Assembly (NCBI GenBank): GCA_031414535.1
Contig: JANNVQ010000008.1
Coordinates: forward strand, 24,106-88,105
Source of the DNA: Gemmatimonas sp.
GTDB lineage: Bacteria; Gemmatimonadota; Gemmatimonadetes; Gemmatimonadales; Gemmatimonadaceae
Direction: 5' to 3'
Length of the DNA stretch: 64,000 bases
Part shown: positions 32,101 to 44,100 of the stretch, in pieces
Layout of the letters: each line of letters starts with the position of its first letter
How positions within the stretch are numbered: position 1 is the first letter of the stretch
Position numbers: made by a program

Positions 32101-35100
32101 GGAACATTCTCTCGGCGGCGTATCTCAATGCGCTGGCGGAGTTTCTTGGCATGCGCATTCTCAACTCACCGCCTCTGCTTGCGGTGGACATGAGCGATGC
32201 CATTCTGAGCTCCACCTATGTGGAGACCTCGCAAGGTGCCTCGCACGTGTTCTGCGTGGAGAGCGAGTTCCAGCTCGCCAACGATACGCTTCCGTTGCGA
32301 GGTTTCTTCCTGCTGCTGCCTGACCCGCCATCGCTGCGGGCCATGCTCACGGCCATCAAGGTTTCGTGACCCGTCCGTCCATCGCCGTGTCAACGCGGGA
32401 CCGCGAGGTCCTGCGTGGCTTTGCGCGCCGCATTGATGCGGCGGACGCCGGCGCGCACAATAACCTGGGTGTGTTGTATTACACGAAGGGATTGTACGAA
32501 GAAGCGGTAGAGGCCTTCACGAAGGCGCTCGACCTGGACCCCAAGATGCAGGTGGCGCAGCGCAATCTCGAAGTCGCCTACTTCAACACGGGCTACTACG
32601 ATTCGCGCGTCGCGGAGCTGCGTGAGCGCTTGCGCCACAAGCCCGATGATCGCGATGCTCGTTGGGAGCTCGGCCGCGCCTTCGCCTTGCTCGGTCAGCC
32701 AGAAGACGCCATCCCGGAATTTCAGGCGCTCCTCGCGCTGCGTCCGGGCGACGTGGGCACGATGATCCAGCTGGGACTCGCCGAGAAGGCGGCGGGGCGC
32801 CTGGGCGTGGGACTGAGTTGGTTCCGCACCGCCTTGGGTCGCGATCCGCAGAGTGGATTGCTGCATTTCTACGTGGGCGAGGTGCTGTACAATCAAGGCG
32901 CGTTCGATGATGCGCTGAGCTCCTTGCATCGCGCCATCCAGTTGAATCCTGATCATCCGGACTCGCATTTCCTGCTCTCCTTCGTACTCGGCGACATGGG
33001 CCGCCACGATGAAGCGCAGGCCGCCTCCAAGCGCGCCATCCAGTTGAACCCGGCGCTTTCGCGGGCCCAAGCCAACCTCTCGCTCGACGAGTATGACCAA
33101 AAGAAGTACGAGCAGTTGGTGCCGGGACGTCAGGCAAGAAAGTCGCAGGCGCAAATGCGCATTGCCGAAGGCGAGCCCTTGGCGCACTACACGCTAGGGC
33201 AGGCGTTCCGCCAGCAGGGATTGCTTTCCGAGGCAAGTCGCGAGTACGACACCGCGCTGCTGCGGGGTGAGGATCGTGCGCTGGTGGTGCAGGCGATGGC
33301 CGAACTGCACTTGCTGCGCAAGGAACCGCAGCCGGCCATCGCGTTGTACGACGAGTTGCTGGCGCAGCAGTCTGATTCACCCAAGCTGTGGAACGAACGC
33401 GGCGTGGCCTTGCATCAAACTGGTGACCATGCGGCGGCGGCAGAGAGTTATGGCAAGGCGCTGCAGGTGGACCCGACCTACGTCATCGCGCGGAACAATC
33501 TCGCGGTGGCACTGTTCCACGACAATTCGCCCGAAGACTCGATTGACGAGTTCCGCGAGGCATTGCGTTCGAACCCGATGTTCATCAAGGCGCGGCTCAA
33601 TCTCGCGCTCTTGCTCGTGCGCGGGAAGCGTTTTCAGCTTGCGCTTGAGGCGTATCGGCAGGTGTTGGAGCACGACGCCGAAGCCCCGTTGGCCTGGAAT
33701 GGCGTGGGCTTGGTGCTCAGTGAGATGCGCCGGTTCGACGAGGCGCGCACGGCCTACGCCCGCGCCATTCAGTCCAAGCCGGATTTCGCCGAAGCGCATT
33801 ACAACTTGAGCTTCACGCTCTCCAATCTTGGCGACTACGCTGGGGCGCTGCGCGAAACCAAGCGTGCGCTGGAGATGGATCCGTACTACACGCCTCAGAC
33901 CTTCCAACTCGCCATTGACCTCGAGTTTGAGGACGTAGACCTAACGGTTGTGCCGGATTTGGGCGGCGAGAAGCGGATAAGCGGCGGGGTGGAGACCTTC
34001 AGCTTCGATAACTCGATCCTCGACTCCATCTTCAAGCAGCTTGATCCCGTGGTGGCGCCAGAACAGGCGCCAGCGGAGGAAGGTGATCCCTACGCCCTCG
34101 CGGAGGACTTCCTCTCAAAGGGGTTGGTCGATCGTGCGATGGCGGAGGTGAGGCGTGCTCTGGGGCGCGGCGCGGAACCAGCGCGGGGCGATGCTTTGCT
34201 CGGAGAGGCGTTTGGACGTCAGGGTGCCTGGGGCGATGCGCTCGAGCGCTTTGAAGCCGCTCGCCGAGTGGACGCGCGCAACACCGAGGCGCTACGCGGC
34301 GAGACCCAAGCCTTGCTCATGCTGGGGCGCGGCGCGGAAGCTGCGGCGCCCGCGGCCATCTTGCTTGAACTGCTTCCAACCGACGTGGATGCCTTGTTAC
34401 TCGTGGCGACGGCGCGCTTTGAGAGCGGTGACGCCCAAGGTGCGCTCGCAGTACTCGACGACGCACGGCGCGCCGATCCCACGCGCGCCGAGGTGCTGCG
34501 TGGCGTGGGCAACGTCCTGCGCGCGATGGAGAACATTGACGCCGCCATCTCCGCGTATCGTCATGCGCTTACGATTGACGGCGACTTTGCGGCCGTGCGC
34601 TACGACTTGGCGCAGTTGCTGATCACGCGTGGCGATTTCTCCGAGGCCGAGCGCGAGTTGCTGCTCGCGCTCGACGCCGTGCCCACCTACGCCGATGCAA
34701 CGCTGTCGCTGGCATCCTTGCACCGGCAGCGCGAGGAAACGGGGAAGGCACTGGCCTTGCTCGTGGACTTCCTCGAGCGCGATCCGTACTCGTTTGACGG
34801 GCTCGTGGCGCTGGGTGAACTGCTCCTCGACATGGGCCGCAATGAGGATGCTGCCTTTGCCTTCCAACGCGTGCTGCGCTTTGATCCCGCGCACGTGGGT
34901 GCCGTGTTCCATCAGGGTTTGCTCCTCTCACGCCAGCAGCGCTTTCGTGAGGCGGTAGCCTGCTTCCGACGCGTGGCCGAATTGGAGCCGCAGGGTGAGT
35001 TCGCCCGCCGAGCCTTCCGCGAAGCGCGCGCAATCGCGCAGCGCGTGGATGGCTTGGACGAGGAGGCGGGCTAATGGCCATTGAAGGCCCGCTGAAGGAG

Positions 35101-41100: not shown

Positions 41101-44100
41101 TGAAGCGCTCACGCATCTCGAGGCGGCCGCGCGGCAGCGGGGTGCCAAGGCGGCCGTGCACCACAATCTCGCATTGGCCCTCGAGCGACTGGGGCGCGAA
41201 GATGAAGCAAAGGCCGCATTGGAGACGGCGCTCAGCCGTGGTGGGGACGAGGAGCCGCGCATCCATCTCTCGCTGGGTGTGCTCGCCCTGCGGGCCGGGG
41301 ACTTCGCCGCGGCCGACGAGCATTTTATGCGCGCTCGCCCGCTCTACGGGAATCGGCTACCGACGGCGGTGTGGTTTCATTCGTCGGCGCTGGCGGCGGC
41401 CTTGGCGGGACAACTCGAGAAGACGGTGGCGTTGCTAACCGAGGGCGTGGAGGCGCACCCGCACGCGGCGGCGCTGCACAACAATCTTGCCGTGGCCTTG
41501 ATCGCGCTCGGGCGAGGGGACGATGCGTTGAAGGCGGTGCTGCGCGGCTTGCAGGAAGATCCTGGACTCTCGCCGCTGCATCGCAATCATGGCGATCTCC
41601 TGCTCGCGCAAGGCAATCACCAAGGCGCGCTCGAGGCCTACACGCAGGCCGTGCGGCATCACGAGACATTAGGCCCCGAGGTCTGGGCCCGGCTCGGCGC
41701 ATTGCGTTTGGAAGGCGGTGATCCGGACGCGGCGCGCAAGGCGTATGAGCAGGCCTTGGTGCTCGACCCTGGGCATGTGGCGGCCAACGAGGGTCTCACG
41801 ACCCTGCGCTTGGGATGATGGCGGCGGCCGAGGGTGACGAGGCCGCCTTCCGCGCCCTTCTCGAGCAGGTGGCGCGAGATAAGGGCTTTGCCTGCGGCAA
41901 CTATAAAGACGGTTGCCTGCGCCGCCGCGTGAGTGTGCGGATGCGCGCGCGCGGTCTGAGCGACTACGGCGCCTATGCCACGCTCTTGCGTCAGGACGAT
42001 GCGGAGTACGAGCGGCTGATGGACACATTGACCATCAATGTGACGCGATTGTATCGCGATGCTGATGTGTGGGACAGCTTCGCGGCCGAGATTCTGCCCG
42101 AGCTCTGGAGTCGCACGGAGTCCGGGCTCAACGTGTGGAGCGCGGGCTGCTCGTCTGGCGAGGAACTCTACACGCTCGCCGCAATCATTGACCATCATGC
42201 GGTGGCGAGTGGATCGGAGCGGCGGCTGAAGTCCACGCGCATCGTGGGCACGGACATTGATGCCACATCGCTACGTGCGGCTCGCATTGGTAGCTACGCG
42301 GAAGCGGCCTTCAAAGAGATGCCAGCGGCCTTACGCGATCGTTATTTCATTGTGGACGGTGCGCCCGCTTCACCCGGGACGCGCACGGCCGCAGCTGAGT
42401 TGCGTGCGCTCGTGCGTGTGGAACGTCGCGACGTGATCCTCGAGGATTCACCAGGGCAGGGATTCGATCTCATCACCTGCCGCAACCTGCTGATTTATCT
42501 TGACCGCACCGCGCAGGAAGCAATCTTTCGCCGCTTCCACTCGGCGCTGGCGCCGCACGGGATTCTGATGTTGGGCAAGGTGGAAACCATGCTGGGGCCG
42601 GCGCGGCAGCTCTTTGCGTCGCGTCATCAGCGTAGCCGCATCTTTCGGAAGGCCTCGTGAGCGTGCAGCACGTGCGCATCGCACACATTGCGGTGGCCAA
42701 GGAGGGCGGGCGGCTCGTCGCCGTGGGTCTTGGATCATGCGTGGCGCTGACGCTCTACGACCGCGTGAAAGGCATTGGGGGAATGGCGCACATCCTGCTG
42801 CCTGACCCGAGCGCGGCGCGCGACGCTTCTAATCCCGGGCGTTTTGCTTCCACCGCCGTGCCCTTGCTTCGTGAGGCCCTGATGGCGGCGGGAGCGCGCG
42901 GGCCGTTCGAGGCCAAGCTGGTGGGCGGCGCGGCGCTCTTTGGCAGCATGCTCGGGAGCGGGGGCCAGCAGATGGGCGAGCGGAACGTCGAGGCAGCCCG
43001 GAAGGCGCTCGTGACCCTGTGCATTCCGATTGCAGCGAGTGAAACGGGCGGTGTCAGCGGACGCACGGTGTCCTTTGACGTGAGCGATGGCCAGCTTGAG
43101 GTGCGGAGTGTGCGCGGCGGGATTCGTGTGCTCTAGCTTGGCGCGAAGAGGGGACTGCCGTGTCCAGTGAAGCGCGCACCGTACTCGTCGTGGACGACTC
43201 GGCGCTGCTTGGTGCCGTCGTCCGCGAACTCATTGAGGGGTTTGGCGGATTTCGCGTGGTGGGCGTGGCGCGCGACGGAGAAGAGGCGCTGCGCATGGTG
43301 CATGCGCTAAATCCCGATCTGGTCACGCTGGACATCGAGATGCCCGGTGTGGATGGGCTGCACGCCCTGGGCTACATCATGAGTGAGTGCCCGCGACCCG
43401 TCATCATGGTGAGCGGCGCGACCCTTCGCGGCAACGTGGACCTGACGATCCGCGCCTTTGAGTTGGGCGCAGTGGAGTTCGTGCGTAAGCCCGATCAACT
43501 CAGCCCGAGTGCTTGGGCGACGGTGGCCCCGCGTCTGCACGATGCGCTGCGCGCCGCGTCTGGTGCGAACTACGGGGTGCCGTTGCTGGCGCGACCGCAG
43601 GAGCGTACCCGTGTGACCGCGCGCCCGCTGCGTGGCGCCACGGAAGTGGTGGCCATCGCCGCGTCCACCGGTGGACCACGTGCCTTGGCAGAAGTGATTC
43701 CCGGATTGAGTGCGCAGTGCGAGGCTGGCGTGGTGATTGCGCAGCACATGCCGCCAGGCTTTACCGCGGGACTCGCGCGGCGGCTTGACCAGCTCTCGCA
43801 CCTACCGGTGCGTGAGGCGCAGAGTGGCGAACCGCTCCTCGCGGGGCAGGTCTACATCGCCCCGGGCGGGCGGCACCTCACCGTAATTGCCGAGGGCGAG
43901 GGCGCACGATTGCACTTGAGTGATGCCCCGGCGGAGCATGGTGTGCGCCCGGCGGCGGATCCGCTTTTTCGAAGCGTGGCCAAAGCATTCGGTGCGCGTG
44001 CGCTTGGTGTGGTGCTGACGGGGATGGGACGCGATGGAAGCGCGGGCCTGCGTGACCTGCTGGGCGCTGGCGGCCGCGCCTTGGTGCAAGACCGAGCGTC

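What a model noticed while it worked through the whole genome (the two positions that open the first line are those of the whole stretch)
35074..41815. Tandem DnaA-ATPase protein without DNA-binding domain, wedged between MglA and a chemosensory cluster
g00462 (633 aa) consists of two complete DnaA-type AAA+ modules, each with intact Walker A/B, and lacks both the DnaA N-terminal domain and the domain IV that binds DnaA boxes; it sits between mglA/mglB-like polarity genes and a PatA_N(DUF4388)-TPR gene inside a che operon, while a normal dnaA lies at the origin on C57. I propose a Gemmatimonadota-specific Hda-like regulator that ties replication initiation (DnaA-ATP state) to the MglA/Che polarity-motility module. 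New would be a tandem-AAA+ member of the DnaA/Hda family and a genetic link between the replication initiator family and Ras-like polarity control.
Evidence so far: Pfam table: Bac_DnaA 1-162/162 at residues 3-164 (E 3e-50) and 3-161/162 at 357-516 (E 2e-50); no DnaA_N, no Bac_DnaA_C. Sequence shows GGSGLGKTHL / LLLLDDLQF and GPSGVGKTHL / ILVIDDIQF. Neighbours: g00461 MglA (Arf), g00458 TPR+Robl_LC7 (MglB-like), g00457 and g00463 DUF4388/PatA_N, cheW/Y/A/C upstream and cheR/D/B/W downstream. Pair Bac_DnaA next to PatA_N: 935 of 1362 Gemmatimonadales genomes and only 1425 of 18464 genomes that have both families anywhere. Full-length homologues of 59-96% identity, 576-673 aa, in the 120 best hits; sources name them only DnaA/Hda family, replication initiator or ATP-binding protein. 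Canonical DnaA g03287 (465 aa, DnaA_N+Bac_DnaA+Bac_DnaA_C) next to dnaN o [...]
(Added by a program. Inside this text positions count along the whole contig: contig position 24,106 is position 1 of the stretch shown here. "Call 12" and the like, gene names such as g00115 and contig names such as C1 are that model's own, and its searches are not shown. The text may have been shortened before it was handed on; [...] marks where a part breaks off. The agent that wrote the report below was given it as the finding of a first reader that could run no searches.)

Follow-up and report, generated by a model that had tools for sequence, protein, structure and literature searches.

The report
DnaA-derived adaptor in polarity-signalling operon
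A protein made of two copies of the DNA-replication initiator's ATPase core looks repurposed as a switchable adaptor in a cell-polarity and pilus-control gene cluster rather than as a replication regulator, because some relatives drop both ATPase copies and keep only two short docking motifs.

Summary
In detail: 38300-40201 encodes two DnaA-type AAA+ modules without domains I and IV, between mglA and a DUF4388-MshEN-TPR gene in a che operon; a normal dnaA lies on C57.

The Hda reading is poorly supported. There is no clamp-binding motif, and relatives form a deletion series: module 2 lost, linker lost, or both ATPases lost. In 8 genomes only a 60-73 aa ORF remains (helix H plus C-terminal tail), still directly upstream of the DUF4388-TPR gene. 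The tail tracks that gene, not mglA or che.

Module 1 keeps the ATP-site face and module 2 the arginine-finger face, as a capped head-to-tail DnaA dimer would. Best reading (0.6): a self-contained ATPase switch docking on a c-di-GMP-binding scaffold of an MglA/Che system that probably steers type IV pili. Binding is untested.

Relatives occur in WOR-3, and other DnaA-type domains are fused to a PilB-type N-terminus. Side finding: DnaA itself carries a clamp-motif-like Q[MI]D[LFM]F in 26 of 26 sequences from this order, which keeps a replication link possible (0.12). The scan noted this cluster before on other DNA; my literature searches found no description.

The parts
38300..40201 (+). Tandem DnaA-type AAA+ protein (633 aa), no domain I or IV
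38306..38959 (+). Module 1 (res. 3-220): intact nucleotide site (K49, D106/D107, sensor I D140, sensor II R205); ssDNA residues and outer finger face eroded
39026..39076 (+). Helix H (res. 243-259, EFxxFL), kept in the shortest natural forms; low pLDDT in the monomer model
39077..39355 (+). Helical linker domain (WxxEGY...DP), homologous to a ~98-aa repeat in long DnaA-domain proteins elsewhere
39368..40069 (+). Module 2 (res. 357-590): arginine-finger face kept (R447, R451, F475, N479, R509); sensor I and lid eroded across the family
40127..40198 (+). C-terminal tail (family consensus EKxVWxWP...RxIEE), kept in every in-cluster form seen
40202..41818 (+). DUF4388/PATAN-MshEN-TPR protein, the constant downstream partner; tandem MshEN motif at about 40370-40531
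   Evidence: (NF053729 51.7 bits, cut-off 38)
37699..38298 (+). MglA-type small GTPase (second copy beside mglB on C54)
37191..37664 (+). MglB-like Roadblock protein
   Evidence: (NF052242, E 4.7e-5, below cut-off)
36853..37194 (+). Small Roadblock/LC7 protein
36065..36856 (+). TPR + Roadblock protein
35074..36054 (+). First DUF4388/PATAN protein with weaker MshEN-type insert
   Evidence: NF053729 32 bits, below cut-off
32366..35074 (+). 902-aa TPR protein
28803..32369 (+). cheW, cheY, cheA, cheC
41815..46002 (+). cheR, cheD, cheB, cheW, cheW, TPR protein; no chemoreceptor in the cluster (3 elsewhere)

Best explanation
The protein is a DnaA-derived adaptor with a built-in ATPase switch, working in the MglA/Roadblock/PATAN-MshEN/Che system and not on the origin. 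Its irreducible parts, helix H and the C-terminal tail, dock on the co-translated DUF4388-MshEN-TPR protein (inferred). Module 2's arginine finger closes module 1's ATP site in cis, as in one step of a DnaA filament; the eroded outer faces cap the pair so that it neither polymerises nor joins DnaA filaments (inferred). The nucleotide state then changes the spacing or exposure of helix H and the tail, which flank the linker and module 2, and so tunes the c-di-GMP-binding scaffold (inferred). The likely output is polar type IV pilus activity (inferred by analogy). Shown: domain content, gene coupling, deletion series, face asymmetry. Not shown: any binding, ATP turnover or phenotype.
For: Deletion series: module 2 absent in G080, G045, G184, G102; linker absent in G176; module 1 plus tail in G200; only helix H plus tail (60-73 aa) in 8 genomes of 4 genera. 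The short ORF is under selection: G068 vs G070, 7 synonymous and 0 amino-acid changes in 60 codons. Among the 14 linker-negative genomes of the order, the 10 with the tail all have the DUF4388-TPR gene and the 4 without it lack that gene too. The pair persists without the cluster's mglA in G048, G068, G070, G180, G200, G112, G155, and without che genes in G110, G164, G200, G112, G155. A matching start follows the tail's stop in 101 of 102 loci with a tail hit. Face asymmetry in 62 proteins, fraction matching DnaA: ATP face 0.85 (M1) vs 0.57 (M2), finger face 0.39 vs 0.78, background 0.64 vs 0.52. The partner's MshEN insert is lost in 7 of the 8 genomes that lost both ATPases. P0194 and P0197 fuse a PilB-type MshEN N-terminus to two DnaA-type domains. 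G000 has pilM and 5 PilT-family ATPases but no flagellin hit; among 40 full-length carriers, pilM is in 40 and flagellin in 19. PATAN domains bind PilB1 in Synechocystis (10.1101/2021.06.11.447907, passages).
Against: The model leaves the arrangement of the two modules unsettled (pTM 0.53). Module 1 stays intact in forms that lack module 2, and its own finger is kept in 54 of 62, so cis pairing is not the whole story. Module 2 partly keeps DnaA's ssDNA residues (I/V 51, K 35, T 31 of 62). pilM is nearly universal in the phylum (34 of 39), so it does not single out pili. The losses are few and related, perhaps three or four events. Assigning residues to the two faces rests partly on recall. One copy in G046 has helix, linker and a weak tail fused to another domain with no DUF4388 neighbour found.
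Confidence: 0.6

Rival explanations
1. Hda-like regulator linking replication to polarity (first reader, modified). DnaA brings its own clamp motif, and module 2 supplies the arginine finger in trans while the tail tethers the protein to the polar scaffold.
For: Module 2 keeps the equivalents of Hda F118, N122, R153 in 47, 47 and 59 of 62 proteins (residue roles from PMC5397184, passages). No separate Hda in G000: only two DnaA-family loci. Q[MI]D[LFM]F in domain II of 26 of 26 DnaAs of the order. An AU test does not reject a common origin with the host DnaA (p 0.31).
Against: No clamp motif on the protein; TIGR03420 148.8 bits against a cut-off of 194.8. Module 2 is lost in 4 genomes and both modules in 8. 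The DnaA motif is present in 4 genomes that lack the whole element and in carriers of the short ORF, and absent in 5 of 5 full or partial carriers from other orders. The same residues fit cis pairing equally well. A conserved ATP face on module 1 is not needed for an Hda role.
Confidence: 0.12
2. Self-assembling scaffold: module 1 and module 2 from different molecules stack into an ATP-dependent filament or ring that positions the chemosensory array or the polar complex, a ParA/ParC-like job done by a DnaA fold.
For: Both fingers are largely kept (54 and 59 of 62). The gene sits in the only cheA operon found. Long relatives carry 6-8 linker repeats like a rod. Forms with module 1 alone exist.
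Against: The outer faces are eroded (R206 4 of 62 and H231 2 of 62 in M1; sensor I 20 of 62 in M2). The pair persists without che genes.
Confidence: 0.15
3. Sensor of single-stranded DNA or nucleotide state: module 2 still binds ssDNA (for example DNA taken up by pili) and reports to the scaffold.
For: I190/K222/T225 equivalents are partly kept in module 2 (residue roles from PMC6669920 and 10.1101/2022.03.18.484894, passages).
Against: Those positions are lost in module 1 (0, 1 and 20 of 62) and lie next to the finger-face helices; conservation in module 2 is only about 0.5, near its background of 0.52.
Confidence: 0.08

Closest known systems
DnaA (domain III, initiator clade AAA+)
   Same: Fold and motifs of both modules; 34-41% identity to the host DnaA; passes the TIGR00362 cut-off (467.9 vs 343.9) only by summing two domains.
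   Different: No domain I or IV; two modules with complementary faces; ssDNA residues lost in module 1; extra helix, linker and tail; dispensable.
Hda / HdaA (RIDA)
   Same: Domain III without domain IV; module 2 keeps the Box VI/VII residues F, N, R.
   Different: No N-terminal clamp motif; canonical Walker A; much closer to DnaA than to Hda (E 2e-53 vs 7e-4 against PDB chains); the finger-bearing module is lost in some lineages.
Myxococcus MglA/MglB/MglC, Frz and SgmX/SopA pilus-control network; cyanobacterial PATAN regulators
   Same: MglA, several Roadblock proteins, TPR scaffolds, PATAN domains and a che system in one unit. MglA next to PATAN genes is in print (PMC4316618, passages); SgmX recruits PilB (PMC11580455, passages).
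   Different: No DnaA-type ATPase was mentioned in the passages read (0 hits for DnaA in PMC4316618). Here the che genes include cheC and cheD and share the operon.

Membership tests
DnaA initiator | Domain III AAA+ with Walker A/B, sensors, arginine finger | tested here: met
   Both modules in the window protein
DnaA initiator | Domain IV for DnaA boxes and domain I | tested here: not met
   No Bac_DnaA_C or DnaA_N; only a low-confidence 40-aa tail follows module 2
DnaA initiator | ssDNA residues I190, K222, T225 (B. subtilis numbering) | tested here: inconclusive
   Module 1: 0, 1, 20 of 62; module 2: 37 (+14 V), 35, 31 of 62
DnaA initiator | Gene beside dnaN at the origin | tested here: not met
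   That gene is on C57; this one sits in a che/mgl operon with no perfect DnaA box in 28-47 kb
Hda | N-terminal clamp-binding motif (QLSLF type) | tested here: not met
   Module 1 starts at residue 3; a loose pattern hits 9 of 62 proteins, all inside the ATPase core, none in the window protein
Hda | Arginine finger and Box VI residues that dock on DnaA | tested here: met
   Module 2 F475, N479, R509 (47, 47, 59 of 62); module 1 only the arginine
Hda | Family model score | tested here: not met
   TIGR03420 148.8 bits for two domains, cut-off 194.8
Hda | Clamp- and DNA-dependent stimulation of DnaA-ATP hydrolysis | not testable with these tools
   Needs biochemistry
MshEN c-di-GMP receptor (downstream partner) | Tandem MshEN motif | tested here: met
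   NF053729 above cut-off, two motif copies; binding itself untested
MglA polarity module | MglA with P-loop, switch arginine and TVPGQ, beside a Roadblock gene | tested here: met
   roles of these residues are recalled

The most novel reading that the evidence does not exclude
In this order DnaA docks on the sliding clamp through its own domain II motif, so an inactivator needs no clamp motif. Module 2 of the tandem protein supplies the arginine finger while its tail is held by a c-di-GMP/MglA polar scaffold, so polarity signalling gates replication initiation directly. It would be one member of a wider subfamily of DnaA-type ATPases fused to signalling domains.
Probability: 0.12. Interest if true: 0.9.

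Novelty: new variant of a known kind. Interest (0 to 1): 0.62.

Why it matters
The DnaA ATPase core is known from replication initiation and its control. If the best reading holds, it has also been recruited as a signalling switch for polarity and pili in a phylum abundant in soils, with relatives in WOR-3 and independent fusions to a PilB-type c-di-GMP domain. A natural, covalent, capped DnaA dimer would be a convenient model for one step of the DnaA filament, and the natural 60-residue form defines a testable docking motif. The protein also passes the NCBIfam DnaA cut-off and is often named DnaA in databases, so it inflates dnaA counts. The clamp-motif-like peptide in DnaA itself suggests an Hda-free way to control initiation and deserves its own test.

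Tried and rejected

Sequencing runs: no RNA holder listed.

Linker fold search: best Z 5.5 among generic helical bundles, uninformative. ESM Atlas gave no usable hit for the linker.

Genomic context of the long repeat-bearing relatives: the metagenome scan returned 80 loci, all canonical-type dnaA. I used them as tree and motif controls; taxonomy look-ups gave no organism for the long proteins. Their N-terminal domain aligns in register with the DUF4388 start only weakly (hhalign E 0.03-0.08, probability under 2%), so a PATAN fusion is not claimed.

Separate origin of the subfamily: a careful tree of 60 domains puts 26 canonical DnaAs on one side of a 99/92 branch, but the AU test does not reject grouping with the host DnaA (p 0.31); left open. 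That tree omitted Hda and other long branches from the 146-row quick tree.

Spurious linker homology rejected: reversed long proteins gave no hit, and the best unrelated score in the host's ORFs was 11 bits. MglA as the fixed partner rejected. Flagella as the required output rejected.

Literature: ten searches listed no paper describing the protein or the DnaA motif. The library lacks most subscription papers and I read no supplements; supplementary table S2 of PMC4316618 may list the neighbourhood.
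Full report
1. Observation. The window is G000:C8:24106-88105. ORF 38300-40201 encodes 633 aa with two Bac_DnaA stretches and neither DnaA_N nor Bac_DnaA_C. The halves are 34% identical to each other and 34-41% to the only other DnaA-family locus of the genome, a 465-aa DnaA upstream of dnaN on C57. AlphaFold on an 83-sequence alignment folds module 1, a helical linker and module 2 confidently, but not residues 222-258 or the tail, and not the overall arrangement (pTM 0.53). The best structural match is B. subtilis DnaA domain III. The gene lies in a run from cheW to a TPR gene with gaps of at most 43 nt and many overlaps: cheW, cheY, cheA, cheC, TPR, DUF4388, TPR-Roadblock, Roadblock, MglB-like, MglA, the tandem protein, DUF4388-TPR, cheR, cheD, cheB, cheW, cheW, TPR. 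Both DUF4388 proteins carry an MshEN-type insert, the downstream one above the NF053729 cut-off. A motif scan (pattern recalled) found such motifs in only three proteins of the genome: these two and a 611-aa ORF beside pilT that I take to be PilB.

2. Distribution. A linker profile matched 136 of 201 sampled genomes of the phylum: 127 of 141 in the order, 9 of 45 in other orders of the class and 0 of 15 in other classes. These tallies, and those, include four genomes marked unpublished (G053, G093, G153, G178); no sequence-level claim rests on them. A tandem with the same linker is labelled candidate division WOR-3, so the family is not phylum-specific. A profile search also returned P0194 and P0197, which join a PilB-type MshEN N-terminus to two DnaA-type domains without the linker. 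It returned five proteins of 1084-1420 aa with 6-8 linker repeats and one DnaA-type domain, four of them ending in zinc ribbons. The repeat homology passed a reversed-sequence control. That these are archaeal is my guess from their domain style; no call gave an organism.

3. The constant partner. In the loci read by BLAST the DUF4388-TPR gene follows directly wherever the contig extends, with one exception below. A start of its type follows the tail's stop in 101 of 102 loci with a tail hit; the other overlaps it, and 8 of 110 loci had no tail hit in that scan (3 at contig ends, 4 with weaker tails seen, 1 the exception). Thirty of these loci are close relatives. The cluster's mglA is missing beside the pair in G048, G068, G070, G180, G200, G112 and G155, and che genes in G110, G164, G200, G112 and G155. 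The exception is a second copy in G046, fused to another domain, with no DUF4388 neighbour found.

4. Deletion series. Module 2 is absent in G080, G045, G184 and G102, the linker in G176, and both in G200. In G032, G043, G048, G068, G070, G110, G164 and G180 both ATPases are gone and a 60-73 aa ORF remains, made of helix H and the tail, still directly upstream of the DUF4388-TPR gene. G068 and G070 differ at 7 synonymous and 0 non-synonymous codons of 60. A tail profile, built partly from these sequences, matched 137 of 141 genomes of the order. The four misses (G087, G081, G085, G039) are exactly the four of 14 linker-negative genomes where the DUF4388-TPR query found nothing. In 7 of the 8 short-ORF genomes the partner has lost its MshEN insert. 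These are few, related events, and the assemblies are incomplete.

5. Face asymmetry. I mapped B. subtilis numbering through and took residue roles from PMC6669920 and 10.1101/2022.03.18.484894 (passages); which face each residue lies on is recalled and follows the order of a figure legend. In 62 proteins module 1 keeps Walker A (62), Walker B (62, 61), sensor I (57), sensor II (57), F218 (48) and G317 (57), but R206 in 4 and H231 in 2. Module 2 keeps R202 (60), R206 (53) and the finger (59), but sensor I in 20 and F218 in 9. Against a background of 0.64 and 0.52 over 100 invariant DnaA columns, the ATP face scores 0.85 and 0.57 and the finger face 0.39 and 0.78. In G112 and G155 module 2 has lost Walker A and B but kept the finger. 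This is what a head-to-tail dimer in cis would leave. Against it: module 1's finger is kept in 54 of 62, module 1 survives alone, and module 2 partly keeps ssDNA residues.

6. Mechanism. Most likely (0.6) the helix and tail dock on the DUF4388-MshEN-TPR protein, and the capped ATPase pair modulates that docking. The likely output is type IV pili. G000 has pilM, five PilT-family ATPases, three chemoreceptors and one cheA, and no flagellin hit at 98% completeness. Among 40 full-length carriers, 40 have pilM and 19 flagellin, but pilM is also common in non-carriers. PATAN domains bind PilB1 in Synechocystis (10.1101/2021.06.11.447907, passages), MglA genes occur near PATAN genes (PMC4316618, passages), and the MglA effector SgmX recruits PilB (PMC11580455, passages). 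All steps from binding onward are inference.

7. The Hda reading. Hda needs an N-terminal clamp motif and the arginine finger (PMC5397184, passages). The motif is absent and the family score is below cut-off. In its favour, module 2 keeps the equivalents of Hda F118, N122 and R153, and G000 has no separate Hda. DnaA carries Q[MI]D[LFM]F in domain II in 26 of 26 sequences from the order, against 0 of 5 from other orders and 2 of 78 loosely similar hits in other canonical DnaAs. That motif does not track the tandem protein in either direction. I give the replication link 0.12.

8. Origin. A careful tree of 60 domains separates 26 canonical DnaAs from both modules, the MshEN fusions and the repeat proteins (99/92). 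An AU test does not reject joining the modules with the host DnaA (p 0.31), so an ancient separate subfamily is suggested, not shown.

9. Novelty and verdict. Ten literature searches (listed under Tried and rejected) showed no description; PMC4158269 (passages) concerned unrelated viral ATPases. Earlier scan notes on two other genomes recorded the cluster and the pair; I tested the coupling independently. It is not a DnaA and not an Hda by their defining features. It is a real, conserved, undescribed variant of the DnaA ATPase that most likely serves polarity signalling. Interest 0.62.

Noticed in passing
L091:7282-7296 (DnaA on G000 C57, residues 90-94); L192-L216: Canonical DnaA carries a clamp-binding-motif-like Q[MI]D[LFM]F in domain II in 26 of 26 sequences from this order and 0 of 5 from other orders.
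   Followed up: partly
L172:9927-10145, L173:7827-8042, L174:2097-2312, L175:8903-9082, L176:8747-8926, L177:9778-9984, L178:8697-8912, L179:8949-9131: Small ORFs of 60-73 aa, easily missed by gene callers, that keep only helix H and the tail of the tandem protein.
   Followed up: yes
Proteins P0194, P0197: PilB-type MshEN N-terminus fused to two DnaA-type domains separated by about 1200-1300 helical residues; organism unknown.
   Followed up: partly
Proteins P0225, P0232, P0242, P0252, P0264, P0271-P0279: Long proteins with ~98-aa repeats homologous to the linker, joined to a DnaA-type domain, zinc ribbons or a KaiC-like ATPase; possibly archaeal (guess).
   Followed up: partly
Protein P0192: Tandem form with a C-terminal receiver domain in place of the tail.
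   Followed up: no
Proteins P0191, P0214, P0250: Other proteins with two DnaA-type domains and no linker, one with domain IV; they group with canonical DnaA in the quick tree, so tandem duplication arose more than once or these are assembly artefacts.
   Followed up: no
L190:6363-8363: Second copy in G046: helix, linker and weak tail fused to an unrelated cysteine-containing N-terminal domain.
   Followed up: no
G000 C54:75547-76721: Second mglA-mglB pair in a housekeeping region, separate from the che cluster.
   Followed up: no
L043:9023-11124, L044:8362-10943: The tandem gene is in two reading frames in G123 and G194; sequencing error or real split not resolved.
   Followed up: no
window 21449-28855 and 45142-54177: The cluster is inserted between divIVA-ileS-lspA-rluA and rsmH-ftsL-ftsI-murE (cell-division genes), with a conserved TPR, MA-type peptidase and 628-aa TPR gene at its 3' end.
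   Followed up: no
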